From: Escherichia coli
Lineage (GTDB): Bacteria; Pseudomonadota; Gammaproteobacteria; Enterobacterales; Enterobacteriaceae
Strand: one strand, 5' to 3'
Assembly: GCF_024700885.2 (NCBI RefSeq)
Contig: NZ_CP117016.1
Length of the DNA stretch: 64,000 bases
Shown here: positions 24,470-39,964 of the stretch, piece after piece
Layout: each line of letters begins with the position of its first letter
Numbering within the stretch: the stretch's first letter is position 1
Translations under genes and position numbers: made by a program
The notes under the pieces: generated by a model
Database searches by the model: none
What the model was told of the DNA's origin: nothing
The model's input: only the letters and a program-made list of their open reading frames with translations

Positions 24470-25723
24470 ATGCTGGAACAAATGGGCATTGCCGCGAAGC
24501 AAGCCTCGTATAAATTAGCGCAACTCTCCAGCCGCGAAAAAAATCGCGTGCTGGAAAAAATCGCCGATGAACTGGAAGCACAGAGCGAAATCATCCTCAA
24601 CGCTAACGCCCAGGATGTTGCTGACGCGCGTGCCAATGGCCTTAGCGAAGCGATGATTGACCGTCTGGCACTGACGCCCGCACGGCTGAAAGGCATTGCC
24701 GATGATGTGCGCCAGGTGTGCAACCTCGCCGATCCGGTGGGGCAGGTAATCGATGGTGGCGTGCTGGACAGTGGCCTGCGTCTGGAGCGCCGTCGCGTGC
24801 CGCTGGGTGTGATTGGCGTGATTTATGAAGCGCGGCCGAACGTGACGGTTGATGTCGCTTCGCTGTGCCTGAAAACCGGTAACGCAGTGATCCTGCGTGG
24901 TGGCAAAGAAACCTGTCGCACTAACGCTGCAACGGTGGCGGTGATTCAGGACGCCCTGAAATCCTGCGATTTACCGGCAGGCGCAGTACAAGCGATTGAT
25001 AATCCTGACCGCGCGCTGGTCAGTGAAATGCTGCGTATGGATAAATACATCGACATGCTGATCCCGCGTGGTGGCGCTGGCCTGCATAAACTGTGCCGCG
25101 AACAGTCGACGATCCCGGTGATCACAGGTGGTATAGGCGTATGCCATATTTATGTTGATGAAAGTGCAGAGATCGCTGAAGCCCTGAAAGTAATCGTCAA
25201 CGCGAAAACCCAGCGTCCGAGCACATGTAATACGGTTGAAACGTTGCTGGTGAATAAAAACATCGCCGATAGCTTCCTGCCTGTGTTAAGCAAACAGATG
25301 GCTGAAAGCGGTGTGACGTTACACGCCGATGCTACCGCACTGACGCAATTGCAGGCAGGTCCCGCGAAGGTGGTTGCTGTTAAAGCTGAAGAGTATGACG
25401 ATGAGTTTCTGTCATTAGATTTGAACGTCAAAATCGTCAGCGATCTTGACGATGCCATCGCCCATATTCGTGAACACGGCACACAACACTCCGATGCGAT
25501 CCTGACCCGCGATATGCGCAACGCCCAGCGTTTTGTTAATGAAGTAGATTCATCCGCTGTTTACGTTAACGCCTCTACGCGTTTTACCGACGGCGGCCAG
25601 TTTGGACTGGGCGCGGAAGTGGCGGTAAGCACACAAAAACTCCACGCGCGTGGCCCAATGGGGCTGGAAGCGCTGACCACTTACAAGTGGATCGGCATTG
25701 GTGATTACACCATTCGTGCGTAA
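24470..25723 (+). CDS. proA: gamma-glutamyl phosphate reductase
   Basis: 417 aa aldehyde dehydrogenase-family protein directly after proB. Confidence 0.95.
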
Positions 25724-25837
25724 ATAAAACCGGGTGATGCAAAAGTAGCCATTTGATTCACAAGGCCATTGACGCATCGCCCGGTTAGTTTTAACCTTGT
25801 CCACCGTGATTCACGTTCGTGAACATGTCCTTTCAGG

Positions 25838-25913
25838 GCCGATATAGCTCAGTTGGTAGAGCAGCGCATTCGTAATGCGAAGGTCGTAGGTTCGACTCCT
25901 ATTATCGGCACCA
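25838..25913 (+). tRNA. thrW: tRNA-Thr (anticodon CGU)
   Basis: GCCGATATAGCTCAGTTGGTAGAGCAGCGCATTCGTAATGCGAAGGTCGTAGGTTCGACTCCTATTATCGGCACCA; cloverleaf with CGT anticodon; integration site for the downstream island. Confidence 0.95.
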
Positions 25914-26077
25914 TCACCTAGTTTTCCCAAGTCAACCCACATCAACAAAATCATTTAAAAACATATATATTACGTTGTTTTCATACGTTTGAGGTCAACC
26001 CTTGTCTCTTGAAATCAACACGCGGTTGGGGGCACAATCAGGGGCATGTTCTGTTCGGTCTAGGAAATGTGCCCCCA

Positions 26078-27268
26078 ATGATGCTGAATGCCCGCAAGGT
26101 TGAAGCTGCGAAAGGAAAAGAGAAGAGCTACAAGCTGTTTGATGGAGGTGGCCTATATCTTCAGGTCGAACCTAATGGCTCGCGTTACTGGCGTATGAAA
26201 TACCGTTTTGCTGGTAAAGAGAAACGATTGTCCTTTGGTGTTTATCCAACAGTCACACTTGCTGATGCCAGACAAAAACGAGAAGACGCGAAGAAACTAC
26301 TCGCAGCAGGTGAAGATCCCGGCGAAGTCAAAAAAGCCAAAAAGCAGGCTTTAAATGCAGCGATTGAGACACTTAACCCATTCAGAGAAGTGGCGTTAGA
26401 GTGGCACAAAATGAAATCACCCAAATGGTCTGAGGGCTATGCTTCCGACATCATTGAGGCATTCGAGAAAGACATTTTCCCGCATATTGGGCACAGACCT
26501 ATAGCTGATATTCAGCCCCTTGAACTGCTTGAAGTTCTGAGATTGATAGAAGCTCGAGGCGCTATGGAGAAAGCGAAGAAAGTCCGTCAGCGATGCGGTG
26601 AAGTTTTTCGCTATGCCATCGTAACGGGTAGGGCAATCTACAATCCGGCACCGGATCTTGCCAGTGCGATGCAAGGACATGAAGCAGTCCACTATCCATT
26701 CCTCAAAGCCAACGAACTACCGGAGTTCTTTAATGCCCTTAATTCTTATTCAGGAAGTCCAATTGTATTGTTGGGGGCGCATTTACTTATCCTGACAGGT
26801 CTACGAACTGGAGAACTACGAGCAGGTGAGTGGCGAGAGGTGGATTTTGATAATGCGGTGTGGGAGATCCCAAAAGAACGTATGAAAATGCGTAGGAGCC
26901 ATATTGTCCCGTTGTCAAAACAAGCATTATCCCATCTCAAAAGTTTGAAAGAACTAACTGGGAACTACCCGCTGATGTTCCCTGGACGCAACGATCCTAG
27001 CAAATTTATGAGTGAAGCAAGCATTAATCAGGTGTTTAAACGTATTGGATATGCAGGGCGTGTTACGGGGCATGGTTTCAGGCATACGATGAGTACAATC
27101 CTACATGAGAAAGGATTTAACAGCGCTTGGATTGAAACCCAGCTTGCTCATTCGGACAAAAACTCTATTCGTGGAATTTATAACCATGCCCAATATCTCG
27201 AAGGGAGAAGAGAAATGATGCAATGGTATGCTAATTATTTATCTGAGCTAATTGGTACTCATAAATGA
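26078..27268 (+). CDS. P4-type tyrosine integrase (tRNA-targeting)
   Basis: ORF 26009..27268; likely start at MMLNARK; C-terminal catalytic region with HGFRHT and conserved Tyr (RGIYNHAQYLEGRREMMQWY); directly beside thrW. Confidence 0.85.
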   Translation: MMLNARKVEAAKGKEKSYKLFDGGGLYLQVEPNGSRYWRMKYRFAGKEKRLSFGVYPTVTLADARQKREDAKKLLAAGEDPGEVKKAKKQALNAAIETLNPFREVALEWHKMKSPKWSEGYASDIIEAFEKDIFPHIGHRPIADIQPLELLEVLRLIEARGAMEKAKKVRQRCGEVFRYAIVTGRAIYNPAPDLASAMQGHEAVHYPFLKANELPEFFNALNSYSGSPIVLLGAHLLILTGLRTGELRAGEWREVDFDNAVWEIPKERMKMRRSHIVPLSKQALSHLKSLKELTGNYPLMFPGRNDPSKFMSEASINQVFKRIGYAGRVTGHGFRHTMSTILHEKGFNSAWIETQLAHSDKNSIRGIYNHAQYLEGRREMMQWYANYLSELIGTHK

Positions 27269-28089
27269 ATATTTTAAAAATTAATAATACTGATTCTCTG
27301 CTCAGAGATTACTACCAGTTGGATGAAGCTTCAGAAAAAATTGGTTGTAGTGAAAAGGATATACTCTGGTTTGCCAGAGAACGAGATGTAGAGCTATGCA
27401 TGGAATTCCATGATGATGAGTATGATGTTTCATGTGGTTTGAAGATTGATGGTCAAATGGATGAGTTCTTATCTAATCTGAAATATTTACCACGAGATAG
27501 AAATGGCAATATTATGTTGTCAGACTTAAGTTCTATAAGAATCCCTGATGAAGATAATTTAATTGATAAAAATGGTTTTATTCGATGTTTCATATCCGGT
27601 TTATGGGCTGTTGATTATGAATATAAAGATCTGTTAGTTAAGCATGAGGGGCAACCGGATTCCTGGCCTATTCATTTTCTACTGGCGGGTACGCCTAATA
27701 TAAATTGTAAGGTAATTCTTTATGTAAATTATGATGAAAAAGAAAATTATTATCTTTTTGAGGTTTTGTGGATTACAAAGGTACAGATTCAAAAATTCAT
27801 TGATATAGTCTTATGCGAACAAAAGCGGATAAAAAACGCCAATAAATATAAATCACAATCTGAGGCGCAAAAACAAAAACATGCTGTTCCTCGAGCTGAA
27901 ATACTCATGGCTATTATTTCGCTCTATCATCGTGATATGAGGCTAAGAAGAGAGAGTCCAGCAGCGATAGCTGATTATCTTTTTCAACATGCCAGTGAGT
28001 TCTGGCCTAAGACCGGAGAACCGCCTTTGAGCTATGATACTGTTGTTAGTTTGCTACGTAGTTGCATGAAAAACACTAAGTTTAACTAA
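27265..28089 (+). CDS. hypothetical protein (AT-rich island cargo, translationally coupled to integrase)
   Basis: 274-aa ORF whose ATG overlaps the integrase stop (ATGA); strongly AT-rich compared with flanking DNA; no recognisable motif. Confidence 0.55.
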   Translation: MNILKINNTDSLLRDYYQLDEASEKIGCSEKDILWFARERDVELCMEFHDDEYDVSCGLKIDGQMDEFLSNLKYLPRDRNGNIMLSDLSSIRIPDEDNLIDKNGFIRCFISGLWAVDYEYKDLLVKHEGQPDSWPIHFLLAGTPNINCKVILYVNYDEKENYYLFEVLWITKVQIQKFIDIVLCEQKRIKNANKYKSQSEAQKQKHAVPRAEILMAIISLYHRDMRLRRESPAAIADYLFQHASEFWPKTGEPPLSYDTVVSLLRSCMKNTKFN

Positions 28090-28214
28090 ATATTAACAAT
28101 TATTGTGGCTAATGATTTTGGATTTTTTTCATTAGTCACATTTTTCTCATTTATAACCTATGTTTTAATTTTCCGTGTTGAAGCCAATAGACTTAGATAA
28201 ACGGAGAATGATGA

Positions 28215-28421
28215 ATGTTATCTAAACATGATAATACTACTTTGCAACGACCTTCAATGGATTCTCTGATCGATATGAAGTTTATTACTTCCGATTGTTT
28301 ATTAAGTGATAAATGGATTTATCGATTGATTTCTCTGAATCGCTTTCCAAAACCTATAAAAATAGGTCGGATGTCACGATGGCGCGCTGCTGATTATTAT
28401 AAGTGGCGAGATGGGTTTTAA
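28215..28421 (+). CDS. alpA: AlpA/Vis-family phage transcriptional regulator (excisionase-like)
   Basis: 68 aa with the AlpA-like core ...RLISLNRFPKPIKIGRMSRWRAADYYKWRD. Confidence 0.7.
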   Translation: MLSKHDNTTLQRPSMDSLIDMKFITSDCLLSDKWIYRLISLNRFPKPIKIGRMSRWRAADYYKWRDGF

Positions 28422-28537
28422 GAAAACTCAGGTCAACATTTTGAGGGAATGAGAAATAAGGCAAGAGCAATTAATAAAGGGAATAGATTATCACCTACTC
28501 CCTAAGCCTTAATTGATAGTTAGTAATATTTAACTGA

Positions 28538-28711
28538 TTAGCCTTTAGGGTCAATCCCGCGTGATTGGAGTTCTTTGCGTAAAATTCTTTTAATCCAAGT
28601 TGCCAACGCGCTATCTCCATCTTTGCGCATTTCGTTTTCGAGTTGCAACCTAAAATCGTCGGTAAGACGCATTTGGAATGGTGGAGAACGTTTCTCTTGT
28701 GGTGTTGACAT
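28538..28711 (-). CDS. small Arc/MetJ-type (ribbon-helix-helix) DNA-binding protein, putative island repressor
   Basis: 57-aa minus-strand ORF (MSTPQEKRSPPFQMRLTDDFRLQLENEMRKDGDSALATWIKRILRKELQSRGIDPKG); below the ORF-track size cut-off; start codon overlaps the operator region. Confidence 0.45.
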   Translation of the reverse strand: MSTPQEKRSPPFQMRLTDDFRLQLENEMRKDGDSALATWIKRILRKELQSRGIDPKG

Positions 28712-28751
28712 GGTAATTACCCTAGAATATGATGACTACATGGTAATTACC
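28705..28751 (+). promoter_or_regulatory. sigma-70-like promoter (TTGACA-17-TATGAT) with two copies of the palindromic operator GGTAATTACC
   Basis: TTGACA at 28705-28710, 17-bp spacer, TATGAT at 28728-28733; catGGTAATTACC occurs at 28709-28721 and 28739-28751, 30 bp apart. Confidence 0.45.
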
Positions 28752-28842
28752 ATTGTAAGTATAGTTCGCTTGTAAAAGCAATGCCCGATTGTGCGGGAAC
28801 ACAAATCGGGCATTTAACCAACCGTTATAAGAGGTAACGAAG

Positions 28843-29019
28843 ATGGCTAAACAGAAGTGTACTTGGTTATTTGCGGCGATCAACCGCAGTCAACGCAATG
28901 CCCGTCCTGTGATGTTAAGGATCACCGCAGATAACGAGCGGTCAGCGCGGCGCAGACTTGCCCCGGACTATGTACTGAGCTTTGCCGGGCGCATTCCCTG
29001 CGGAGGTGAACATGCGTAA
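28843..29019 (+). CDS. small hypothetical protein (58 aa), first ORF of the rightward early transcript
   Basis: ATG with GAGG 8 nt upstream; MAKQKCTWLFAAINRSQRNARPVMLRITADNERSARRRLAPDYVLSFAGRIPCGGEHA; not in the ORF track (<60 aa). Confidence 0.3.
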   Translation: MAKQKCTWLFAAINRSQRNARPVMLRITADNERSARRRLAPDYVLSFAGRIPCGGEHA

Positions 29020-29371
29020 TTATCCGCACCCCGGCGAACGCTGGCAGCATGAACGTGGCTGGACGGTCACGATTATCCGATTAATAGAAGCATCGCCCTC
29101 TGTGGCACTGGTTAATCCTGAATTCAGCTGTGAAGTGCTGATACGTCATGACAGCGACAACCAGCTTTCTTCCTGCCCTCTGGCATGGTTTGAACAGCGG
29201 TATACGCGCCTGTTTGATGTACCGCTCTTTAAGCCTGCACCAGCTCCTGCAGGCGGTAGTGGTTCCGGCCCGCTGACACTGCATCCGTCTGTGCTATTTA
29301 TCCGCTGGCGGGAGCGTAGCATATGGCGTTCTGCTGAGCCTGACGACGGTCACTATTCAAAGTTTCTCTGA
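29012..29371 (+). CDS. hypothetical protein (island early region)
   Basis: ORF 28982..29371; ATG at 29012 with GGAGG 8 nt upstream; 119 aa, no recognisable motif. Confidence 0.4.
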   Translation: MRNYPHPGERWQHERGWTVTIIRLIEASPSVALVNPEFSCEVLIRHDSDNQLSSCPLAWFEQRYTRLFDVPLFKPAPAPAGGSGSGPLTLHPSVLFIRWRERSIWRSAEPDDGHYSKFL

Positions 29372-29402
29372 CAAAATACCGCTGAAAACGGAGTAATCCA
29401 CG

Positions 29403-29687
29403 ATGAATATTTCAAACGGGCACAACGGTGCTCAGGGCCACACTTTGCCTGAAAAACACAATACCGGTGCTTTTGCCTATGGGTTGTCAGAGGACAGTTT
29501 CGGAAAGCTGACCCGCGCAAGAAATGCCTGCGACATGCTCCAGCTTCTCTTTTCTGAATACCCGTCTCAGGCCGGAGCACTGGACGCTGGCTGTGCGCAT
29601 GGTGTCGCCGCGCTGATGGAGTACCTGCTGGCAGATTTGACGGATATTGCACACAGCTGCGCACTGATTGAAGGAGGTGCCAGATGA
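29403..29687 (+). CDS. hypothetical protein (island early region)
   Basis: 94-aa ORF, 4-nt overlap with the next ORF (operon-like). Confidence 0.4.
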   Translation: MNISNGHNGAQGHTLPEKHNTGAFAYGLSEDSFGKLTRARNACDMLQLLFSEYPSQAGALDAGCAHGVAALMEYLLADLTDIAHSCALIEGGAR

Positions 29688-30067
29688 ACCAGCCGCAGGT
29701 TTCCATTTTCCCGGCAGAAATGACCACCGCGCTTTACCGGCGGGCTATTGCTTCAGCATGGCGGCAGAAAATGCTGAACGAAACTGGCAGTGATCAGTAT
29801 GGTCCGCACAGCCTGACGGTGGAGCGTATTGAAATGGCCATTGCGCTGCATATCGAGTGCGTACTGATTAACGAGTACGGCGAAGTGCAGGGCGCCGCTG
29901 CCGCGCTGGCACTGCTGACTGACATGCTGGAGCCGTCACTGCTGACCGCGCCGCCGGTACTGACCGCGCGCGGCTGTGAAGTGATGGCGGAGATGTACCG
30001 CACGCTTCCGGCGGCCTTTGATGACTTCTGCAGTACCGGTGTGACGTTGTATGAGGGGGAAGTATGA
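29684..30067 (+). CDS. hypothetical protein (island early region, precedes primase)
   Basis: 127-aa ORF, 4-nt overlaps with both neighbours. Confidence 0.4.
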   Translation: MNQPQVSIFPAEMTTALYRRAIASAWRQKMLNETGSDQYGPHSLTVERIEMAIALHIECVLINEYGEVQGAAAALALLTDMLEPSLLTAPPVLTARGCEVMAEMYRTLPAAFDDFCSTGVTLYEGEV

Positions 30068-32736
30068 CAATACAGACGGTTACGCAGATTTCAGCCGCCG
30101 CACGGGGGAAATGGCCCGTTATTCTGCAGATGCTGCGTATTGATGTACCTGAAAACGGCAGGCACGGTCCCTGCCCGAAATGTGGGGGCAAGGATCGTTT
30201 TCGCCTTGATGACCTTGACGGGCGCGGGACGTGGATCTGCAGCCAGTGTGGCAATGGTGACGGTCTGGATCTGGTTAAGCTCGTAACCGGTTACAGCGTC
30301 AGAAAGGCTGCGCAGGAGGTGGCGCAGGTGCTTAATGTGCCGAATATGCAGGAACTGCCTGTTAAGCCTGCCAGACAAAAAGCCCCTAAACGCGACATGG
30401 GTCTTACCGTGGCGGCGCTGATGAAAGAGAGCCACACGGGAGAAAGCGCCTATCTGACAGGAAAAGGGTTCGCCGGATACCCGGCCTCTCTGACCGGAAG
30501 CGTGCAGCATATCAGCGGTAAGGATTTCCCTGCCGGTTCCCTGCTGTTACCACTCACGACCAACACCGGAGCCGTGACCGGTGCACAGCTTATCGCCCCG
30601 ACGGGTGAAAAAAGCATACTGCCCGGCAGCACGATGAAAGGCGCGTTTGTGTCGCTCAGCCCGTTACCGTCTGAACCACCGGTACAGGTGGTGATTACCG
30701 AAGGTTACGCTACGGCGCTGACGGTAAGTCAGCTCACTGCCGGATGCGTAGTGGCTGCCATATCTGCGGGCAACCTGCCCAATGTGGCGCAGTCGCTGCG
30801 GGCACGCTGGCCTGAGGTAAAAATTATCATCGCCGGTGATAACGATTTTCAGGACGGAGATGAGAATCCCGGCAGAGCCTTTGCTGAACGGGCGGCAAAA
30901 GCTGTTGGCGGCTGGATGACGCTGCCACCAGGAGAGATTAAGGCTGACTGGAATGACTTTCATCGGGAGCACGGTATTACCCGTGCCCGTGAAGCCTTTC
31001 GCAACGGTCTGGTACTGTGCGGGGAAGGCCGCACGCAACTGCCGCACGGGTTCCGTCTTACCCAGGAATATCTCTGGTATGAAAAGCAGGTACAGCGCAA
31101 CGGTGAGACGGAGATCCAGAACGTCAAAATATGCAGCCCGCTGCGCGTGACGGCAATCACCTGCGATGCCGATGGCGGTAACTTCGGACGACTGCTGGAA
31201 TGGGAAGATACGTGGGGTGAGTGTCGCCGCTGGGCGATGCCGATGGAAATGCTGAGCGGCAGTGGTGAGGAACTGCGCCGGGTACTGCTGGTTAACGGGC
31301 TGTCTTATATCAGCACCACCGGTGAGGCACGCGCACGCCTGATGGAATATATCTCACTGTGTAAACCGGAACGCCGCGTGACCTGCGTCAGTCGTACTGG
31401 CTGGCATGGTCAGGTTTACGTCCTGCAGGATGAGGTCAGCGGTGAAGGTGCAGAGGGTGTCATTCTCCAGACCACTTCCGTGCAGGGGCGTGATTTCCGC
31501 GTGTCGGGCACAACAGAGGAATGGCGGGAGCATGTATCCCGCTACTGTACCGGCAACTCCCGCGTGGCATTTGCTGTCAGCCTGGCCTTTGCTGCACCAC
31601 TGTTACGGCTGGTTGGTATGGACGGCGGCGGCTACCACCTCAAAGGGGAATCGACAGACGGTAAGACCACCACCATGAAAGCGGCAACCTCCGTCTGCGG
31701 CGGGCCTGACTACTGGCAGACATGGCGGGCCACCGGCAACGCGCTGGAGGGATGCGCCAGCCGCCGCAACGATGCCGCCATGATGCTTGATGAGATCCGG
31801 GAAGTTGACGGACGCGAGGCAGGCAATATCGCCTACATGCTGGCAAACGGTCAGGGCAAGGGCCGTGCCGGTACGGACGGTGAGCTGCGTACCCGTAAGC
31901 AGTGGCGCCTGTTGTTCTTTTCAACTGGCGAGTTGTCTCTGACCGAACATGCGGCAAAGGCCGGTGAGCGTACTTTTGCCGGGATGGAAGTCAGGATGAT
32001 CCAGATCCCCAGCGATTCCGGGAAGTTTGGCGTTTTTGAGGAGCTGCACGGCTTCGACAGCGGCAAGGCTCTGGCAGAGCATCTTGAATGGGCCACGTCC
32101 TGCTACTACGGTTCGCCGTTCCGGGAGTGGCTGAAAGCACTGACCGCTGATCTTAACGGACTAACGGCACAGGCAAAATCGCTGATGAAGGAATATGCTG
32201 CCGCCCTGACTCCGAAAGATGCAGGCAATCAGGTGGGCCGGGCTGTGAACCGCTTTGCTCTGGTGGCGATGGCAGGTGAACTGGCAACCCGTCTGGGTAT
32301 CACCGGCTGGCCTGAGGGTGAAGCACTGCGGGCAACCCGCGTCTGCCTGAACGCATGGCTGAAAGATCGCGGGCACACCGCCAATCAGGAAGATATCGCC
32401 GCACTGGAGCAGGTTCGCAGTTTCTTTACCGCGAATCAGTACAGCCGCTTTGCAGACTGGTATGACGAGCGCAACCGCCCCGGCAATATGGTGGGCTGGC
32501 GCAGGGTGGAGAAAGGCAGTACCGCGCAGGGCACGGAAGCTGTCACTACGTTCTATGTCATGCCGTCCGGCTGGAAAGAAATCTGCAGGGGATTTGACCC
32601 GCGCAAGGTGGCGCGTCTGTGCGCAGATCGTGGATACCTGCTGCCCTCCACAGATGGCAAACTCCAGACAACCATTCGCCCGCCAGAGATGAATCCCCGC
32701 AGGCTCTATGTCTTCAACAGCGAGGTGCCTGGTTAA
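30064..32736 (+). CDS. P4 alpha-type primase/helicase (zinc-binding primase domain, Toprim, P-loop NTPase)
   Basis: 890 aa; N-terminal Cys4 zinc motif (CPKCGGKDRF...CSQCGNGDG), Toprim-like acidic region, Walker A GESTDGKTT. Confidence 0.88.
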   Translation: MTIQTVTQISAAARGKWPVILQMLRIDVPENGRHGPCPKCGGKDRFRLDDLDGRGTWICSQCGNGDGLDLVKLVTGYSVRKAAQEVAQVLNVPNMQELPVKPARQKAPKRDMGLTVAALMKESHTGESAYLTGKGFAGYPASLTGSVQHISGKDFPAGSLLLPLTTNTGAVTGAQLIAPTGEKSILPGSTMKGAFVSLSPLPSEPPVQVVITEGYATALTVSQLTAGCVVAAISAGNLPNVAQSLRARWPEVKIIIAGDNDFQDGDENPGRAFAERAAKAVGGWMTLPPGEIKADWNDFHREHGITRAREAFRNGLVLCGEGRTQLPHGFRLTQEYLWYEKQVQRNGETEIQNVKICSPLRVTAITCDADGGNFGRLLEWEDTWGECRRWAMPMEMLSGSGEELRRVLLVNGLSYISTTGEARARLMEYISLCKPERRVTCVSRTGWHGQVYVLQDEVSGEGAEGVILQTTSVQGRDFRVSGTTEEWREHVSRYCTGNSRVAFAVSLAFAAPLLRLVGMDGGGYHLKGESTDGKTTTMKAATSVCGGPDYWQTWRATGNALEGCASRRNDAAMMLDEIREVDGREAGNIAYMLANGQGKGRAGTDGELRTRKQWRLLFFSTGELSLTEHAAKAGERTFAGMEVRMIQIPSDSGKFGVFEELHGFDSGKALAEHLEWATSCYYGSPFREWLKALTADLNGLTAQAKSLMKEYAAALTPKDAGNQVGRAVNRFALVAMAGELATRLGITGWPEGEALRATRVCLNAWLKDRGHTANQEDIAALEQVRSFFTANQYSRFADWYDERNRPGNMVGWRRVEKGSTAQGTEAVTTFYVMPSGWKEICRGFDPRKVARLCADRGYLLPSTDGKLQTTIRPPEMNPRRLYVFNSEVPG

Positions 32737-32769
32737 GGCTTTGCGTGAGTCTTATTTATTAAGGGTAAC

Positions 32770-32960
32770 AGGTGAAACAGGTGGAACAACCGTATTTTAC
32801 AGGGCTGAACCTGTTCCACCTTCTGAAATAGTGAGGTGGAACAGATGTAACGCCAGCCAATCCGCTGTTCCACCTTGTTACCCGCGATGTTCCACCGGTG
32901 CAGTGTATATAAATGCCTTATAAAACAAAGCCGTAACACATGTTTCACCTGTTCCACCGC
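32770..32960. repeat. iteron cluster (repeated GGTGGAACA/TGTTCCACC motif), candidate replication origin/crr
   Basis: At least six copies of the TGTTCCACC core in both orientations within about 190 bp directly downstream of the primase gene. Confidence 0.55.
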
Positions 32961-33046
32961 ATCAGGGACATAAAGCAGACTGAAACAGAGGGCATTTTTA
33001 TCTGGCTGGCTTTCATAGCCACGTCTGAATAACCGCAAGCGCCCGT

Positions 33047-33102
33047 TGTGCCAGCCACCACACACTGAACACCGATAGTGTGCTTGTGTCAGCCACGACA
33101 CA
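33047..33102 (+). promoter_or_regulatory. two TGT-N12-ACA dyads (Ogr/Delta-type activator sites), candidate late promoter
   Basis: TGTgccagccaccacACA (33047-33064) and TGTgtcagccacgacACA (33085-33102) upstream of the sid-like gene. Confidence 0.5.
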
Positions 33103-33136
33103 ATTGACGTAACGAACCAACCCGACAGGAGAAGTC

Positions 33137-33880
33137 ATGAACAATACCGCAGTAAATAACAACCTTTCCACTTTTCCGGCTGTAACGCAGCGGGCACTGG
33201 AAACCATGAACACAGCCAGAAACGCATGGCTTGAAGCACGTCGTCAGCAGAAAGCGGCAGCGGATAATATTGCGACAATCCGCCAGCGTCGCGCTGAAAT
33301 GGAAGCCACGACGAACACACTGAATGAGGAGTGGCGCACGCTGTTTCGTGAAAGTCAGGGCGTGATCTCAAAGGAAATGAAAAAACTGCGCACGGAAATT
33401 GCGCTGGGACGAGAAACGCTTGAGGATTTTGATGAGCTGCTGGCGGCTCAGGAAAGCGAAAATGCACTTTTGCCGCAGAAAGCTGCAGAATTAGCCGGAA
33501 AGTATATCCACGCGCATAACATTCTTGTGGATATTCGCGCAAAACAAATCTGGGAGGATTTTATGCAGTCGCATGGAAAAGTGCTTATTCAGACGCTGAG
33601 CCTGCTTAAATCCACAATGGGCCGGGAAGCCAGTGCCGTTGTGGGTGTGGTGAATTCAGTTAATGACCCGGACACAGTGCTGAAAGACTTTATTCATAAA
33701 TATATCACCAGACCGGCTCTGGCTAACGATGCGATGCCTGAGCAGGACCCGGTGTTTAAACTGGCGGGAGTTGCCCCGGATTATGCGGCGCGTCTGGATT
33801 TCAGTAATCAACTCTCTCCGGCAGCTATGCATAAAATTAAGGTTCGTCAGGAACTTGCTGAGAAGGAGAAAGCAGTATGA
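33137..33880 (+). CDS. Sid-like capsid size-determination (external scaffold) protein
   Basis: 247-aa helix-rich protein; first gene of the late operon downstream of the TGT-N12-ACA dyads and immediately upstream of the Psu-like gene; assignment by context and size. Confidence 0.45.
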   Translation: MNNTAVNNNLSTFPAVTQRALETMNTARNAWLEARRQQKAAADNIATIRQRRAEMEATTNTLNEEWRTLFRESQGVISKEMKKLRTEIALGRETLEDFDELLAAQESENALLPQKAAELAGKYIHAHNILVDIRAKQIWEDFMQSHGKVLIQTLSLLKSTMGREASAVVGVVNSVNDPDTVLKDFIHKYITRPALANDAMPEQDPVFKLAGVAPDYAARLDFSNQLSPAAMHKIKVRQELAEKEKAV

Positions 33881-34428
33881 CGGCCCGAGGCACGCCTGAC
33901 CAGGCACTTACCAGTTTTCGGAATGCCCGTATTCTGTGGGCCGGACATAATGAGAGCCGAAAAGCCGTTGAACAACAGATAACATCTCTCCTCGCTGCCA
34001 CAGAAAAACCAGCAGATTATGCCCGACAGCTCGAATTACTGCGGGAACGTCTGGATGTGCTGAAATGGCAAATTAACTGTGCTGCGCGCGAATGCATTTA
34101 CTCGCAGCATTTACTGATGGAGGCCTGCACAGAAGCCGCTCTCAGCAATTTTATGCAGGCGAATGGGGCAGCCCTGACATCTGCACTGGCTCCGTTCCTG
34201 AAGGGGCGCGGAGGGGTTGACGTTGCGTCCCGTATATTACGCAGTGCTCTGGTTCGCCAGCTGGCAATAACACCGCCTGAATTTGCCGGGGATTATCGTG
34301 AGATCCTGGATGAATCCGGTTTGATGCTTGACCCCGGGATGATTCGTGATTGCCAGGGTTCTTACACCCCGGCACAACATCTGCGTTTTCAGCAACGCCT
34401 GAATGACATTAACGATATACAGGAGTGA
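33877..34428 (+). CDS. Psu-like polarity-suppression / capsid-decoration protein
   Basis: 183 aa; motifs recalled from P4 Psu (LKWQINCAAR, HG.ALA.ALAP, TPAQHLRFQQR); 4-nt overlap with the sid-like gene. Confidence 0.65.
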   Translation: MTARGTPDQALTSFRNARILWAGHNESRKAVEQQITSLLAATEKPADYARQLELLRERLDVLKWQINCAARECIYSQHLLMEACTEAALSNFMQANGAALTSALAPFLKGRGGVDVASRILRSALVRQLAITPPEFAGDYREILDESGLMLDPGMIRDCQGSYTPAQHLRFQQRLNDINDIQE

Positions 34429-34433
34429 TATTA

Positions 34434-34706
34434 ATGGCACTTAAATGTCCGGAATGCGGTACAGTTGCACACGCCAGAACAGCAGCCTATGAAGCTCCGT
34501 CAGTTAAACGCTCGTGGTATCAGTGCCAGAATCTGGAATGTTCCTGCACATTTACGGCACTGGAGAGTGTGGATAAGATAATCATGAAACCCCGGCGCAA
34601 TGAACAGGAACCAGACAAATCACAAACCCCGGTAAAACAACAGCAAACGCTCAATCGCTATGGCTCCGCGTCAAAACTGTCAAGCCGTCAGCAGATTCCT
34701 GTCTGA
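34434..34706 (+). CDS. Ogr/Delta-family zinc-finger late transcriptional activator
   Basis: ORF 34425..34706; start trimmed to MALKCPECG with AGGAG upstream; Cys4 pattern CPECG...CQNLEC typical of Ogr/Delta. Confidence 0.75.
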   Translation: MALKCPECGTVAHARTAAYEAPSVKRSWYQCQNLECSCTFTALESVDKIIMKPRRNEQEPDKSQTPVKQQQTLNRYGSASKLSSRQQIPV

Positions 34707-34727
34707 TTAGAAAAAAAATGCCCACGT

Positions 34728-34753
34728 AATCCCGGTCGAGTACTGGGATTTTT
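34728..34753 (+). terminator. rho-independent terminator-like hairpin after the late operon
   Basis: aatccc-ggtcgagtact-gggatt stem-loop followed by a T run. Confidence 0.4.
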
Positions 34754-35289
34754 AACACCTTACCCCTGGCTGGCCTGAGAGCGCATGAGTGCATGTCTAT
34801 GGCGCATGAAAACGCATGAGTCTCATGCACCATTTTTGACGCGAAAGCCCTTGTGTGGTGGCTTCTGAGACGATTAATGAGGTGCATGAAAACCAGTCTG
34901 TTAAGTGAAGCGGGAAGGCGTGCGGGGCTGCGCACGTAGCAGGGTTAAATGGTCAATTCTGGCGCAGCTCACGACATTAAGTCAGCCTCAATAGATGTAC
35001 GTGTTGGTAGGGGTAATTCGCTACTTTTTTGTATCCTAAATTGTATGGTTTGATGCTGATCGTTTCTTCACCGCACCTGCAGAGATATCAATTCAATGTG
35101 GACAAAAATGAGTCTGGCTCTTTCCGTATCACTAGAATTGCCAGTATTGTTAGGGATGATGCCCATATCATACGGAGGGAGCCAGTGGGGGCGATTGCGC
35201 GTGGAAAGTGCTTTGGATTTATTCATCGGTTTTATGATTCTACATAAGGAGCAAAGGTACTTGTATCGTATGAAAAAAAATAGTATAGA

Positions 35290-35520
35290 TATAATGCTCC
35301 TTACGCGTTATGGCATAGTTATATGCTAGTCGGGCGATTAGCCAGACTCGAACTTATTGAACGGTATTAGGGTTGCGCTTGGTGTGCCTCTGGATTGCAC
35401 TCCATGCTGTCGCGCAATCCAGAGGCACACCAAGCGCTTCCTTTAGGTAAGTGAGTAAAAACAGCACCTTCTTCGATTTATGATGAAGGTGCTGCAATCG
35501 TAACGTTTTTTGTATACACG
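35290..35520 (+). ncRNA. candidate retron msr-msd non-coding RNA
   Basis: Non-coding stretch directly upstream of the effector-RT pair with a perfect 24-bp stem (35375-35398 / 35414-35437, 15-nt loop) and a second 10-bp stem (35462-35471 / 35485-35494); exact ends and a1/a2 repeats not resolved. Confidence 0.55.
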
Positions 35521-35529
35521 GATAGTATA

Positions 35530-36498
35530 GTGGCTGAGACATACGAAGATAAAGTTGCTAATCATGTTTCAGAGTGGGAAATGGAAAATTTCCGTGTATG
35601 TTATGATGATCAGGTTATTTTCTTATGTGGTGCGGAAGTACTTCCTCAAGGAAGTGTTCAGACTTCAATGAGAGGGCATTTTTATCACTATTGCCTGAAT
35701 AAAAATAAAGATATAGCTGATAAAATAATTCTTGCCGAAAACTTCAAAAAATATCTTCAAAATAATCATTATCCAGACTTAATAACTTTTGAGCATGATG
35801 TTGCAAGTATATCTAGTTTAGTTGTTATTTTCTTGGAAAGCAGTGGTTCAATTGCTGAGTTAGGTGTTTTCTGTAATATTAGTGATGTCAATAAAAAATT
35901 ATTGATATTTGTTCCATCAGATGAAGTTGAAGGTGACAAGAAAGAGTCTTTCATTTACTTAGGGCCTTTATTGTTTTTAAAAGAAAAGGTCAATGAAAAA
36001 GCATTTAAGATTTATCCAAAACCCACTAATGGTTCTGATTACTCCGAGCATTTAGAGATTATGGCTGATGACTTGGCTGAACTATTACCTAGAAGTGGTA
36101 AGTTTGAAAGCTTCGATCCTGACAATTTAGGGCATATAGCTTTTCTTATATGCAGAATTGTGCATTTAGTAATGCCTATTAAGCTAAAGGAAATATTAAA
36201 TTGTTTAAAAATAATAGGTATCAATAAATATACTCTGACTGAGGTTGAAAGAATTTTGTTTTTATTGGAAACATTGGGTTTTATAAATATTTATCCGTAT
36301 GGCGATTTAAAATACTATTATTCAATGCAAGCCAGGCAAAATCTTAAATTAGGGAAAAATAAAACCGGATTCACAATCGATGAGGCTGGTATTTTTACTG
36401 ATATTAGTGTTTTTATCAATGACAATAAATTATGTAGTGATAAAAAAAGACGGCTGGTTTTGAAAGGCATTAAGGAGAAGCATAATGGACATAATTAA
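35530..36498 (+). CDS. retron effector candidate: nucleoside 2-deoxyribosyltransferase-like (NDT-like) protein with C-terminal putative DNA-binding region
   Basis: 322 aa (GTG start in the ORF track); Rossmann-like N-terminus with ESSGSIAELG motif resembling the NDT-family catalytic Glu region; overlaps the RT gene by 14 nt; AT-rich. Confidence 0.6.
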   Translation: MAETYEDKVANHVSEWEMENFRVCYDDQVIFLCGAEVLPQGSVQTSMRGHFYHYCLNKNKDIADKIILAENFKKYLQNNHYPDLITFEHDVASISSLVVIFLESSGSIAELGVFCNISDVNKKLLIFVPSDEVEGDKKESFIYLGPLLFLKEKVNEKAFKIYPKPTNGSDYSEHLEIMADDLAELLPRSGKFESFDPDNLGHIAFLICRIVHLVMPIKLKEILNCLKIIGINKYTLTEVERILFLLETLGFINIYPYGDLKYYYSMQARQNLKLGKNKTGFTIDEAGIFTDISVFINDNKLCSDKKRRLVLKGIKEKHNGHN

Positions 36499-37417
36499 AA
36501 AAATCGCAGATGAAACTCTAATGCCGGTATCAAAAGTATCTGCTTTTATATTTACAGCCCCATATAGATATAAAGTATATCCCATCCCCAAAAGGAATGG
36601 TGGGTTTAGGGAGATTGCTCAACCGTCAAGGGCATTAAAGTTTATGCAAAGGATTGTTATTGCTGAACTAGAGAAAGTACTTAAGGTTCATGAAAACGCA
36701 TATGCTTATGTCAAAGGACGTAGTATAAAAGATAATGTGGAAAAGCATCAAAGAAACTCTTATATTTTGAAAGTTGATTTCTGCGACTTTTTTAATAGCA
36801 TAAACCCTTACGACCTTGAGTTATGTTTAAAAAACAATGGGTTAGACTCATTGTTAAGCTCACAAGAATTATTGAATAAACTTTTTTTCTATAAGAAAAG
36901 TAAAAGAGGTGCTTTATCAATGAGCATCGGGGCACCTAGTTCTCCATTTTTGTCAAATGCGATTATGTATAAGTTTGATTCAGTCATTAGTGATATGTGT
37001 TCAAATAAAAATATTACTTATACAAGATATGCTGATGATCTTACATTTTCTACTAATGAAAAAGGTATTTTGTATGAATTCATACATGAAATAGATAAAG
37101 TTCTTGAGGAGATAGATAGTCCTAAATTAAAACTAAATGATAAGAAAACCATATTTGCATCTAAAAAATGCAATCGTCATATAACAGGAATTGTTATTAA
37201 TAACGAAGAAAAACTTTCAATTGGTAGAGATAAAAAACGTTACTTAAGTAGTTTAATTCATAAATTCTCGCTTAATGCACTTAATGAGGAAGGAGTTGAA
37301 CATTTAAAAGGGTATTTGGCGTATGTAAATAAAATTGAACCTTCATTCATTAGCAGAATGAAAAGGAAATATGGAGTCGAAGTTGTCAACTCCATAATCA
37401 CATTTAATCCATTATAA
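36485..37417 (+). CDS. retron-type reverse transcriptase
   Basis: 310 aa; RT motifs YRYKVYPIPKRNGGFREIAQPSRALK, VDFCDFFNSI, GAPSSPFLSNAIM, TRYADDLTFS (YADD active site), HITGIVI; distant resemblance to the Ec86 RT. Confidence 0.9.
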   Translation: MDIIKKIADETLMPVSKVSAFIFTAPYRYKVYPIPKRNGGFREIAQPSRALKFMQRIVIAELEKVLKVHENAYAYVKGRSIKDNVEKHQRNSYILKVDFCDFFNSINPYDLELCLKNNGLDSLLSSQELLNKLFFYKKSKRGALSMSIGAPSSPFLSNAIMYKFDSVISDMCSNKNITYTRYADDLTFSTNEKGILYEFIHEIDKVLEEIDSPKLKLNDKKTIFASKKCNRHITGIVINNEEKLSIGRDKKRYLSSLIHKFSLNALNEEGVEHLKGYLAYVNKIEPSFISRMKRKYGVEVVNSIITFNPL

Positions 37418-37894
37418 ATGTGAACTTATTATATTTATAATGGTTGTGCTTTTTTCTTGTACCTTAGGGGTGTAAAAGAATGTCATCATGAAGATAATTA
37501 AAAAATGAATGGCAATAAGAGTAATAGGTAACATTTTTTCAATATCACTTAAATGGCGATGCCTTTTTTGTGTAATAACTTCCTCTTCTCTTTTGAAAGG
37601 AGTTATACCTATCTTGACCTCCATCTCCTGAATTACTGTAAACTTAGCAGCATTAATTCTTTTATAGGAAGTAATTAGATTTATCCAATAGATATTAATT
37701 ACGACTCCAGCGAGAGAGATTAAGATTACCCAAATAGGCTGTATTGTTGGCTTTAAAGAAAAATATCCAACAAGCGGTAAAATAGAAGAGTTTAAGGCTA
37801 ATAAAAATGTATTTGACTTAAGTCTTCGATCACTTATTCTATCCGCCATCTCAACGCATGTTTTATATATTTCTATGACTTTATCATCCGTCAC
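37412..37894 (-). CDS. small three-TM membrane protein of unknown function (candidate defence/abortive-infection effector)
   Basis: 160 aa with three predicted hydrophobic helices; AT-rich; convergent with the RT gene, its stop codon overlapping the RT's last codon. Confidence 0.55.
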   Translation of the reverse strand: MTDDKVIEIYKTCVEMADRISDRRLKSNTFLLALNSSILPLVGYFSLKPTIQPIWVILISLAGVVINIYWINLITSYKRINAAKFTVIQEMEVKIGITPFKREEEVITQKRHRHLSDIEKMLPITLIAIHFLIIFMMTFFYTPKVQEKSTTIINIISSHL

Positions 37895-38137
37895 TAATAG
37901 TATCCTTATAAATTTCTGAGTTGTTCAAATAAATGTTATCATATATTTTTATCAACGTAATATGTATTTTTACGTATTTTTAACTGTGAGAGATACATAG
38001 TGATTGTTGGGTGCATGTACAATCCTTGATACTTAACAATGAAAGCGTAGTTGTGGGGGGGGGGCATATTTGGGGGCATTACTATTTAATCTTTCTTGAT
38101 TTTTATTATAAAACAACTGGTTGTATTGATGTTTTGT

Positions 38138-38154
38138 TCCTATTATCGCACCAT
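38138..38154 (+). repeat. attR: degenerate direct repeat of the thrW 3' end (island right boundary)
   Basis: tcctattatcg-caccat matches the tRNA 3' end tcctattatcggcaccat with one missing G. Confidence 0.5.
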
Positions 38155-38280
38155 TTAAATCAAGTAGTTACCTCACATTCAATTACACCACATTTTCCTC
38201 CTGTGCCGTATTTGTGCCATTGTAACCCTGGCAATTCATCAAAATACTGTTCTGACATCAGGCAGTGCAGGTGCAGACAT

Positions 38281-38496
38281 TTAAGCCAATTGCTGCCGCC
38301 ATTCCTTGACGTGGTCAATCAGGGCGCGGAGCTTTGGTGCAATATTGCGACGCTGTGGGAAATACAGATAGAAGCCCGGAAATTGTGGAAGAAAGTCATC
38401 AAGCAGCGATACAAGCTTACCGCTTTCAATATATGGCCTGAAAGTTTCCTGAGTGGCAATTGTTATGCCTGCGCCGGCAAGAGCCAGCCTCAACAT
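38281..38496 (-). pseudogene. LysR-family regulator, C-terminal fragment only
   Basis: 71-aa ORF matching only the C-terminal effector-domain end of the LysR paralogues in this window (...FPGFYLYFPQRRNIAPKLRALIDHV); no HTH N-terminus. Confidence 0.55.
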
Positions 38497-38689
38497 CAGA
38501 CGCAGATCATTCTGCTAATCCCACCGATGCTTCGGTCTGGAGTGGTAAATTAATATTGGACACAGTTTTATTTTCTCTCTTTTTCGAGGGCTATATGAAC
38601 AGGAAGAATACATCCCTAAGCGGTTAATGCTGGCGTAATCAATAGACCAGCATTAATCACAGATGATTACCAATCAGACAGAAATGGTT

Positions 38690-38810
38690 AAATCGTCGAA
38701 TTCATATTTAATACGTTTTCTTACGCCGCTGAGCAACTTGAAAGCAGGAAAAGGATGTATATTTTAAATATCAGTGAAGTGAACAGTTTATTGCCGTTAT
38801 TAATAGAGAT
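38690..38810 (-). pseudogene. degraded duplicate of the rpmJ2 (ykgO) 3' end and ykgR
   Basis: Close nucleotide similarity to 57200-58160; ykgR-like frame disrupted by a deletion (C-terminal IVVFVAIVEYAYLFLHLY retained, N-terminus out of frame). Confidence 0.4.
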
Positions 38811-39079
38811 GGAGGAATAAATAGGCGTATTCTACTATTGCAACAAAAACAACGATAATGATCAGTTTTCATAATGAAGTAACCTGACAGATATAAAAAT
38901 GTTGATTGAGGCTAAATGCCCGGATGAAGGTTGTCGAGGGAGCCAGGTGGTTTTTTCTTTTGGGTGATCTCCATTGCTGGATAGTCCTCTCTTTCTCGCT
39001 CAAAGCAGACCCTGGAATTGAATGCAGAGGGACTACCTGACACAATTTTGCACAGTGAAGAGTCGGTCGTTATTAACGT

Positions 39080-39964
39080 TCAGATTTTCAATGTATCAAT
39101 GACCATCCGCAGGGCGGGGGAGACGTTGCGATGAGGGTAATAGAGAAACAATCCCTCCATTCGCAGGCTGTAACGCTGCAACACCCTGATAAGCTTACCG
39201 TGTTCTAAATCATCCGCGACCAGTTCAACAGGAACATAGGCCAATCCGAGGCCCAGCCGGGCTGCTTCTGCTTCCATATAGCTGTCGGATAAGGCCCATT
39301 GCCCTTCAGGGCGATGAGTGATTTTTTTATCATCCTGATTGAGTTCCCACTGGTATACGCTGCCGTCGGCAAACTGATAGGCGATACAGGGATGCGCCTT
39401 TAAATCCGCCGGGGTTTGCGGAAAACCATAGCGACGAAAATGTTCCGGAGTCCCCACAATTGCCATCTCCATATCGGGCGTGATGCGTACCGCGACCATA
39501 CCCTGGCCGACTTCAGGCCCCAGGCGGACACCTGCATCGAATCTTTCCTCGATGATATCGACGAACCGGCTCTCATTTATCAGTTCAAGCCGGATATCAG
39601 GATATCTCTGTTTAAATACCGCCAGCTTTGGCAGCAGGCATTTATCAATCGCGTGCTGGCTGGCATTGATACGCACCGTGCCGGAGGGCGTCTCTCGATA
39701 GTGCGCCAGCGTGGCAAGCCCAAGATCTAACATTTCAAATCCAGATGCCGTCTTCTGGTAGAGCTGCTCGCCTGCTTGTGTCAGCGACAGTTTACGCGTG
39801 GTGCGCACTAGCAGCTGGACGCCCAGCCTTTCTTCAAGCTCGCGAACAGAACGGCTGACTCCTGACTGAGCAAGACCCAGCCGCTGAGCCGCTGCGGTAA
39901 AGCTGCCTTCCCGCACCACCTGCATAAACAGGTACAGCTCGTTGTAGTTCTCCCTTTTCGCCAT
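39080..39964 (-). CDS. LysR-family transcriptional regulator
   Basis: 294 aa; N-terminal HTH (FTAAAQRLGLAQSGVSRSVRELEERLGVQLL) and LysR substrate-binding domain; divergent from the hydrolase gene. Confidence 0.85.
   Translation of the reverse strand: MAKRENYNELYLFMQVVREGSFTAAAQRLGLAQSGVSRSVRELEERLGVQLLVRTTRKLSLTQAGEQLYQKTASGFEMLDLGLATLAHYRETPSGTVRINASQHAIDKCLLPKLAVFKQRYPDIRLELINESRFVDIIEERFDAGVRLGPEVGQGMVAVRITPDMEMAIVGTPEHFRRYGFPQTPADLKAHPCIAYQFADGSVYQWELNQDDKKITHRPEGQWALSDSYMEAEAARLGLGLAYVPVELVADDLEHGKLIRVLQRYSLRMEGLFLYYPHRNVSPALRMVIDTLKI

What the first reader, a model, noticed from the sequence alone, without database searches (positions are those of the whole stretch)
27265..28089. Unassigned AT-rich 274-aa gene translationally coupled to the integrase
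Its ATG overlaps the integrase stop codon (ATGA at 27265-27268), so it is co-expressed with int. The DNA is strikingly AT-rich and the protein has no motif I recognise. A gene in this position is not part of the canonical P4 backbone, making it a second candidate cargo or defence gene, or a recombination directionality or host-takeover factor.
Basis: inference. Interest (0 to 1): 0.5.

Follow-up and report, generated by a model that had tools for sequence, protein, structure and literature searches.

The report
Integrase-coupled variable gene of P4-type satellites
The AT-rich gene fused to the end of the integrase gene is real and under selection; it is the fixed middle gene of an old integrase–X–AlpA module in phage satellites rather than swappable defence cargo, it differs sharply between close relatives, and its function has never been studied.

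Summary
ORF 27265-28089 (+, 274 aa) starts in an ATGA overlap with the integrase stop. Its GC is 0.35, against 0.45 for int and 0.59 for the primase. It matches no Pfam, NCBIfam, PADLOC or PHROG family.

The "cargo or defence" reading does not hold. In 18 of 18 contexts examined, relatives sit between a P4-type integrase and an AlpA/Vis-like gene. These contexts span several satellite backbones. The family is small: 43 clusters among 1.84 billion representative proteins.

The gene is selected (dN/dS 0.11). It also forms a sharply bounded divergent cassette: Int 93-94% identical, AlpA 78-83%, X only 26-33%. A terminator-like hairpin follows it, so int-X looks bicistronic.

The AlphaFold model (pLDDT 90) shows three parts:
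- a MerR/excisionase-like winged helix, apparently split by a variable insert of about 115 aa
- a basic linker
- a conserved C-terminal helical domain

My best guess (0.38) is an allele-specific regulator or specificity factor of the satellite's integration/induction switch, made together with Int. The main rival (0.25) is a lysogen-expressed exclusion protein. The function is untested.

The parts
25838..25913 (+). tRNA-Thr (CGU), thrW; the attachment-site side (attL) of the satellite
   Evidence: ARAGORN and Rfam tRNA at 71.8 bits. proBA lies upstream. The same layout is annotated in the related E. coli locus L007.
26078..27268 (+). P4-type tyrosine integrase, first gene of the int-X unit
   Evidence: Pfam Arm-DNA-bind_3, Phage_int_M and Phage_integrase. 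RefSeq annotation of the identical locus.
27265..28089 (+). Gene X (the finding): a 274-aa protein. Residues ~1-50 plus ~166-184 form a winged-helix-like domain, apparently split by a variable insert (~51-165). A basic linker follows (185-210), then a conserved C-terminal helical domain (211-274).
28104..28140 (+). Hairpin 15 nt after the X stop, followed by a U-rich tract; a likely intrinsic terminator closing the int-X transcript
   Evidence: dG -15 kcal/mol, z -4.1, 0 of 200 shuffles as stable. Equivalent hairpins with different stem sequences follow X in L002, L006, L007 (then U6), L010 and L014 (z -3.4 to -5.5). The consensus scan missed it because the loop is 13 nt.
28215..28421 (+). AlpA/Vis-like small HTH gene, third gene of the int-X-alpA triad
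   Evidence: Pfam Phage_AlpA E=2e-4 and PHROG 'excisionase and transcriptional regulator'. It aligns with K-12 AlpA and P4 Vis, with invariant F-P, W and W.
28538..28711 (-). Small reverse-strand gene (57 aa, weakly Arc/RHH-like); the last gene of the swappable left module
   Evidence: ORF. PHROG Arc-like repressor E=0.003. A gene of the same size and place occurs in L002, L003, L006, L012, L018 and L019.
28780..28814 (.). Right boundary of the AT-rich swappable module (int 3' end, X, alpA, reverse gene); an 11-bp inverted repeat sits here
   Evidence: 332 E. coli genomes match the backbone from window ~28783/28817 onward at 97-99%. Only 60 also match the left module. Inverted repeat I8. GC rises here.

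Best explanation
Gene X is the middle gene of an old three-gene module, P4-type integrase, X, then an AlpA/Vis-like regulator. This module forms the integration end of a clade of phage satellites and islands in Enterobacterales and related bacteria.

Shown:
- X is made from the same transcript as Int. Its start overlaps or abuts the int stop, and a terminator-like hairpin follows X.
- It is under purifying selection.
- Its alleles are exchanged as a sharply bounded cassette between conserved int and alpA.

Partly shown:
- The protein has three parts. The first is a MerR/excisionase-type winged helix whose wing carries a variable insert of about 115 residues. The second is a basic linker or long helix. 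The third is a conserved helical domain of about 65 residues with the motif ERHA..RE.VL.AAI...WA...A..FWP....PPLS.

Inferred:
- X is an allele-specific regulator or specificity factor of the satellite's integration/excision or induction switch. It would be present whenever Int is made. The conserved ends would contact the conserved partners (regulatory DNA, Int or AlpA). The variable insert would set what it responds to, for example a helper-phage or rival-satellite protein.
For: - Fixed synteny int-X-alpA in 18 of 18 contexts. These cover P4 sid/psu/delta backbones, capsid-encoding backbones and D5- or Bro-N-type islands.
- Conserved coupling to int and a conserved hairpin after X.
- The block int, X, alpA and the small reverse gene is swapped as a unit between satellites that are 97-99% identical elsewhere. 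The argW-module X' is a family member (hhalign 99.4%).
- dN/dS is 0.11; the N and C domains (0.07, 0.04) are tighter than the middle (0.19).
- Across the family the ends are conserved and the middle is variable.
- The secondary-structure order beta-alpha-alpha-beta ... beta-alpha matches the HTH_17/MerR topology.
- HTH_17 is the Pfam family most often weakly hit by members (5 of 22). A spliced construct from the L007 allele matches HTH_17 positions 2-45 of 51 (E=0.0015) and MerR_1.
Against: - No sequence test for an HTH family reaches significance. All are below the Pfam cut-off, and hhalign against an AlpA/Vis alignment is null.
- The winged-helix-like domain is acidic (pI 4.5; family median 5.0). 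That is unusual for a DNA-binding surface; only the linker is basic.
- No candidate operator shared by the module's intergenic regions was found.
- A likely repressor (RHH-like reverse gene with paired GGTAATTACC repeats over a strong promoter) and a likely excisionase/activator (AlpA) are already present. No obvious regulatory job is left vacant.
- Most sibling satellites with the same backbone, such as the leuX module L018, carry an unrelated 212-aa gene in this slot. X is therefore not needed by the backbone itself.
Confidence: 0.38

Rival explanations
1. X is a lysogen-expressed exclusion or interference protein. It would be a moron-like function made with Int in the resting state. It would act against helper phages, other phages or rival satellites that compete for the same tRNA site, and its variable insert would recognise the target.
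For: - GC is 0.33-0.37 in every host, including Pantoea and Erwinia, and lower than both neighbours.
- It is a sharply bounded divergent cassette. DNA identity falls from 80-95% in int to 35-50% across X and returns to about 80% in alpA. Int is 93-96% identical against 25-33% for X. This is the pattern of specificity or arms-race loci.
- The protein is acidic overall, with no clear DNA-binding charge.
- It is dispensable: an IS1 insertion in one genome (H23) and a frameshift in L026.
- The same slot holds an unrelated gene in sibling satellites.
Against: - No PADLOC or other defence-family hit.
- No recognisable effector (nuclease, ATPase, membrane or NADase domain) in the sequence or the model.
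- Defence hotspots hold unrelated systems. Here one family keeps one slot through integrase divergence down to 40%.
- Close alleles show purifying, not positive, selection.
- The satellite already has its cargo slot, filled by a retron, at the far end.
Confidence: 0.25
2. X is an accessory recombination factor for its integrase. It would be a large excisionase-like or architectural protein that helps or steers Int at the attachment site, while AlpA acts mainly as the transcriptional activator.
For: - Translational coupling to int is typical of int-xis pairs.
- X travels in the block that sets site specificity: thrW, argW and other modules each carry their own X allele.
Against: - Integrases 93-96% identical, at the same thrW site, work beside X alleles only 25-33% identical. 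A close partnership with Int or with att DNA is therefore unlikely.
- Obligatory co-production of a directionality factor with Int would hinder stable integration (inference from lambda and P4 biology).
- The AlpA/Vis homologue next door already fits the excisionase role.
- X is 3-4 times larger than known excisionases, and its winged-helix-like domain is acidic.
Confidence: 0.15
3. The ORF is a spurious or decaying reading frame in AT-rich spacer DNA.
For: AT-rich DNA; no known domain.
Against: - Full-length conservation across genera.
- dN/dS 0.11.
- A confident AF2 model, pLDDT 89.7.
- The exact protein occurs on at least 1000 contigs.
Confidence: 0.01

Closest known systems
P4 Vis / E. coli AlpA / KplE1 TorI (small HTH_17-type excisionase-regulators of P4-type integrase elements)
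   Same: - It sits in the integrase module of a P4-type element.
- Its secondary-structure order is the same winged-helix pattern.
- HTH_17 is the family most often weakly hit.
   Different: - It is 3-4 times larger.
- The wing carries an insert of about 115 aa, and there is an extra conserved C-terminal domain.
- Profile comparison with an AlpA/Vis alignment is null.
- The domain is acidic.
- A true AlpA homologue is encoded right next to it.
MerR-family transcription regulators (PbrR, SoxR, MerR, TipA)
   Different: - Scores are weak.
- No Pfam MerR hit for the native protein.
- The long helix is replaced by Gly/Pro-rich linkers in distant members.
- No metal- or drug-binding motif.
- The C-terminal domain is unrelated.
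SaPI Stl master repressors
   Same: By analogy only: an int-proximal gene of a phage satellite of about 250-280 aa, with an N-terminal HTH-like domain plus a variable part. Alleles are highly divergent between otherwise similar satellites.
   Different: - No sequence or structure comparison could be made here.
- X is co-directional with the downstream operon, not divergent from it.
- A separate small RHH-like candidate repressor is present.
- Repressor activity is untested.
P4 cII (gene immediately downstream of int in P4; part of the gop-beta-cII set)
   Same: Same position relative to int and similar size (264 aa against 274 aa).
   Different: - No similarity (hhalign probability 0.4%).
- cII homologues occur elsewhere in the same elements that carry X (L003, L010).

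Membership tests
Canonical P4 backbone genes (int, vis/alpA, cI, epsilon, alpha, cnr/orf106, sid, delta, psu, gop-beta-cII) | Detectable homology to a gene of phage P4 | tested here: not met
   tblastn against 50,697 phage records including NC_001609 gives no match. hhalign against P4 cII gives probability 0.4%. hhalign against an AlpA/Vis alignment is null.
HTH_17 / MerR-superfamily winged helix (excisionase, AlpA, MerR N-domain) | Significant profile match (Pfam HTH_17, Phage_AlpA or MerR at gathering score) | tested here: not met
   The best native match is HTH_17 at E=0.018, seen in 5 of 22 members. A spliced construct of one allele reaches 19.2 bits against a cut-off of 27.
HTH_17 / MerR-superfamily winged helix (excisionase, AlpA, MerR N-domain) | Topology strand-helix-turn-helix-strand-strand-helix, with structural similarity to solved members | tested here: inconclusive
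HTH_17 / MerR-superfamily winged helix (excisionase, AlpA, MerR N-domain) | Positively charged DNA-binding face; demonstrated DNA binding | tested here: not met
   The N-domain pI is 4.5, family median 5.0. Actual binding cannot be tested here.
Known anti-phage defence systems | Match to a defence-protein model | tested here: not met
   PADLOC-DB gives 0 families at E<=1.
Known anti-phage defence systems | Location in a variable cargo hotspot holding unrelated systems in sibling elements | tested here: not met
   X keeps the int-alpA slot in 18 of 18 contexts. The variable cargo (retron, SMC/AAA, NACHT, cII, KwaA) lies after delta/psu. One sibling module does hold an unrelated 212-aa gene in the slot.
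Recombination directionality factors (excisionases) | Small (about 55-120 aa) basic winged-helix protein encoded beside int | tested here: not met
   Adjacency to int is met. Size (274 aa) and charge (pI 5.4) are not.
Recombination directionality factors (excisionases) | Stimulates excision and inhibits integration by its cognate integrase | not testable with these tools
   This needs recombination assays.
Satellite master repressors (SaPI Stl type) | Represses the satellite's early operon and is released by a helper-phage protein | not testable with these tools
   Only positional and architectural analogy is available. No operator candidate was found.

The most novel reading that the evidence does not exclude
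X is the helper- or rival-sensing specificity switch of P4-type satellites, a Gram-negative functional counterpart of SaPI Stl. Its conserved ends would hold the integration/induction module in the resting state. Its variable, cassette-exchanged insert domain would bind a particular phage or satellite protein. The X allele would then decide which helper induces the satellite, or which competitor it excludes.
Probability: 0.15. Interest if true: 0.8.

Novelty: new variant of a known kind. Interest (0 to 1): 0.45.

Why it matters
P4-like satellites occur in a large share of Enterobacterales genomes and carry many defence systems. Their own control circuits, however, are known almost only from P4 itself.

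This work shows that a whole clade uses a different integration end, int-X-alpA. Its middle gene belongs to no described family and is co-made with the integrase. It is also the most divergent, cassette-exchanged gene of the module. Such loci usually encode specificity, such as immunity, induction or exclusion.

If X sets helper or competitor specificity, it would explain how near-identical satellites sharing one tRNA site stay distinct. It would also give a handle for predicting satellite-helper pairings from sequence.

If X proves to be only a minor accessory protein, the practical result still stands: genes next to int in these elements should not be scored as defence cargo by position alone.

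Tried and rejected
- **Family scans of the window protein.** Pfam, PHROGs, PADLOC and NCBIfam gave nothing significant.
- **PDB sequence searches.** Profiles A1, A3 and the spliced domain A5 gave nothing. The antibody hits at E about 0.1 are noise.
- **Fold searches.**
  - Foldseek against BFVD had no hit at E<=0.001.
  - The AFDB library was not available.
- **Homology to P4 cII**, the gene after int in P4: rejected.
- **Homology to K-12 YfjH**, the gene between intA and alpA in CP4-57: rejected.
- **Relation of the N-domain to AlpA/Vis** by profile-profile comparison: null, both for the native protein and after removing the insert.
- **EcCIMP1_002**, a PICI gene between int and alpA (PMC11773190): about a tenth the size of UvrB and not comparable.
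- **Literature.** No paper holds the RefSeq accession. The P4 hotspot papers describe no int-alpA slot.
- **RNA immunity.** No P4 cI or C4-type RNA was found by Rfam in 25000-40000.
- **Shared operator motifs** in the module's intergenic DNA: none convincing.
- **Consensus folding of the post-X hairpin.** It failed because loop lengths differ, so the hairpins were folded one by one.
- **attR.** No second copy of the thrW 3' end exists in the window.
- **Phage records.** Distant family members also have no tblastn match.

Full report
**1. The observation**

Its ATG overlaps the integrase TGA as ATGA. The upstream gene is a P4-type tyrosine integrase with Arm-DNA-bind_3, Phage_int_M and Phage_integrase domains. 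It lies directly after tRNA-Thr (thrW, 25838-25913) and proBA.

The DNA is AT-rich. GC is 0.35 for the ORF, 0.45 for int and 0.59 for the primase. The AT-rich block is larger than the gene. It runs from about 27200 to 28800 and includes the next two genes.

The protein has no significant match in Pfam, PHROGs, PADLOC, NCBIfam or PDB sequences.

**2. The setting**

An identical locus in RefSeq shows a P4-like satellite. The genes, left to right, are:

- int
- X
- an AlpA-like HTH gene (28215-28421)
- a 57-aa reverse gene (28538-28711)
- an icd-like gene
- three small genes, including a DUF5375 gene
- the TOPRIM/DUF927 alpha primase (30064-32736)
- a sid-like 247-aa gene
- psu
- delta

A retron St85 follows (msr RNA at 35296-35365, effector, reverse transcriptase) in the known cargo hotspot.

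The small gene after X aligns with K-12 AlpA and P4 Vis. P4 itself has no X. No phage record matches. P4's own gene after int, cII, is unrelated.

**3. It is a real, selected gene of a small family**

- Word-seeded search found 18 clusters, 54-61% identical over the full length, in Pantoea, Erwinia and Citrobacter, with closer copies (84-94%) in Enterobacter and others.
- An exhaustive profile search of 1.84 billion representative proteins found only 43 clusters at E<=0.001. Most of the full-length ones are 250-326 aa.
- None has a Pfam domain.
- Nine of 33 members weakly match an unannotated PHROG, phrog_7144.
- Against a ~93% identical E. coli allele, dN/dS is 0.11. The N domain is 0.07, the middle 0.19 and the C domain 0.04. 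For comparison, int is 0.05 and alpha 0.035.
- The exact protein is on at least 1000 contigs.
- The window allele is in 69 of 5426 complete E. coli genomes, an argW-module allele in 66, and a third allele in 11.

**4. It is not cargo: the slot is fixed**

In all 18 contexts examined, X lies directly between a P4-type integrase and a small AlpA/HTH_17 gene.

| Contexts |
|---|
| The window itself |
| L002, L003, L006 |
| L007 |
| L010, L012, L013, L014, L015 |
| L019 |
| L021-L026 |
| L027-L029 |

The rest of the element varies. Some are P4 sid/psu/delta backbones. Some carry a P2-type capsid gene and an ASH gene. Others have D5-type primases, Bro-N or KilA-N genes.

The junction with int is overlapping or abutting in most loci: ATGA here, TAAATG or TGAATG in Pantoea and Erwinia, and 4-11 nt overlaps elsewhere. 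In the more distant members the gap is 30-180 nt.

The variable cargo of these elements (retron, SMC/AAA, NACHT, cII, KwaA) sits at the far end.

**5. int-X looks like a two-gene transcript**

Fifteen bases after the X stop there is a 12-bp-stem hairpin at 28104-28140. Its dG is -15 kcal/mol and z is -4.1, and a U-rich tract follows. Hairpins at the same place, with different stem sequences, follow X in five of six related loci tested. In L007 the hairpin is followed by U6. I saw no good Shine-Dalgarno sequence before the X start in the window (my reading). X translation therefore probably depends on ribosomes finishing int; this step is inference.

**6. The module is swapped as a block, and X is its most divergent part**

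- 332 E. coli genomes share the backbone from about 28783/28817 onward at 97-99% identity. Only 60 share the left block.
- Sibling satellites at leuX and argW carry different blocks with the same layout: int, a gene, alpA, a small reverse gene.
- The argW gene is a family member at about 15% identity (hhalign 99.4%). The leuX 212-aa gene is unrelated.
- Among thrW elements the contrast is sharp. The table gives amino-acid identities.

| Comparison | Int | AlpA | alpha | X |
|---|---|---|---|---|
| window vs L007 | 94% | 78% | 67% | 33% |
| L007 vs L014 | 93% | 83% | 89% | 26% |

- Five of the six further loci from the genome scan give Int 84-96%, AlpA 79-83% and X 25-31%. The sixth, L021, carries the window's own allele (X 93%).
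- At the DNA level, identity falls from 80-95% to 35-50% within the last ~50 nt of int. It stays low across X and returns to about 80% inside alpA.
- X is 0.33-0.37 GC in every host but one (L015, 0.45) and always below its neighbours.

This is the pattern of an exchanged specificity cassette. Close alleles nonetheless show purifying selection.

**7. The protein**

Across the family the N-terminal ~50 residues and the C-terminal ~75 residues are conserved, and the middle is not. Identity to the query, averaged over family members, is 34% for the N-terminal part, 19% for the middle and 37% for the C-terminal part.

The family consensus is:

- N-terminal: YY.l.eAA..LGC...Di
- before the linker: kGlW ... 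dLWIt..dl..l
- C-terminal: ERHA..RE.VL.AAI....P..C.....WA......A..FWP....PPLS..I..LL

AlphaFold with the 33-sequence alignment gives pLDDT 89.7 and pTM 0.69. The model runs strand 16-18, helices 19-26 and 30-39, strand 45-48, then an alpha/beta insert. It continues with strand 168-171 and a helix from 172, and ends in a helical bundle.

I read this as an HTH_17/MerR-type winged helix whose wing hairpin carries the insert. The support is modest:

- HTH_17 is the family most often weakly hit (5 of 22 members, best E 0.018).
- Splicing out the insert makes one allele match HTH_17 positions 2-45 of 51 (E 0.0015) and MerR_1, but not the other nine constructs.

Against DNA binding, this domain is acidic (pI 4.5). 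Only the 185-210 linker is basic (pI 10.4). In distant members the linker is Gly/Pro-rich rather than helical. The insert and the C-terminal domain have no structural relatives.

**8. Interpretation**

The reading that fits most facts is a module-specific regulator or specificity factor, made with Int. Its conserved ends would meet conserved partners and its variable insert would set what it responds to (0.38).

- **Exclusion or interference protein (0.25).** This explains the AT-richness, the cassette behaviour and the acidity. It does not explain the fixed family, the lack of an effector domain, or the separate cargo slot.
- **Int accessory or directionality factor (0.15).** This fits the coupling and the excisionase-like fold. 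But near-identical integrases sit beside very different X alleles, and an AlpA/Vis homologue is already present.
- **Spurious ORF.** Excluded by the conservation and selection data.

The remaining probability is for functions I cannot name.

**9. Novelty and score**

The family is uncharacterised. Every source calls it hypothetical, and no paper I could find mentions it. What is new is the int-X-alpA triad, the apparent split winged helix, and the cassette-like divergence.

I rate it a new variant of a known kind: an HTH-type accessory protein in an integrase module. Interest is moderate at 0.45. It is a clear, testable lead on satellite specificity, but no mechanism is shown.

Noticed in passing
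window 35296-37417: A retron St85 system lies in the satellite's far-end cargo hotspot. It comprises msr RNA (Rfam RF00170, 53.4 bits, 35296-35365), an effector ORF (35530-36498) and a reverse transcriptase (36485-37417). Sibling elements carry other cargo at this position: SMC/AAA, NACHT, cII or KwaA.
   Followed up: partly
window 28705-28753: Two exact copies of ACATGGTAATTACC, each containing the palindrome GGTAATTACC, lie 30 nt apart. They overlap the strongest sigma-70-like promoter in the region (TTGACA-17-TATGAT, 28705-28733), which faces the icd-like operon. The 57-aa RHH-like reverse gene is next to them. This looks like the satellite's operator and repressor pair.
   Followed up: no
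window 28780-28814: A perfect 11-bp inverted repeat (AATGCCCGATT / AATCGGGCATT) sits where similarity to about 270 sibling satellites begins. It may be a recombination boundary or a leader hairpin before the icd-like gene.
   Followed up: no
window 26026-26078: A perfect 11-bp inverted repeat (TTGGGGGCACA / TGTGCCCCCAA) ends at the int start codon. It may be a regulatory site or a 5' leader hairpin for int-X.
   Followed up: no
window 25892-25913 and the rest of the window: No second copy of the thrW 3' end exists anywhere in the 64 kb, allowing up to 3 mismatches in 22 nt. The identical RefSeq locus has truncated LysR pseudogenes just beyond the retron. The satellite may lack an intact attR and so be unable to excise.
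   Followed up: partly
L007 16319-22772; also L010 and L014: Sibling thrW elements share the integrase at 87-94% but carry a P2-family major capsid gene, a ~285-aa gene before it and an ASH-domain gene. They also have a DUF927 primase and an Ogr/Delta gene, and lack sid and psu. This satellite type brings its own capsid protein.
   Followed up: no
L001 1-18491 (strain elppa4): In one genome a P22-like prophage (terminase, portal, tailspike, acyltransferase) sits directly upstream of the satellite's integrase. Two elements are therefore stacked in tandem at thrW.
   Followed up: no
H23 (NZ_CP128592.1) and L026 6001-6718: X is interrupted by an IS1 in one E. coli genome and is frameshifted in Citrobacter youngae CCUG 30791. 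Loss of X is therefore tolerated by the host.
   Followed up: no
L018 5346-5984: The leuX-module siblings of this satellite carry an unrelated 212-aa gene with no known domain in the same slot between int and alpA. It may be a functional analogue of X.
   Followed up: partly
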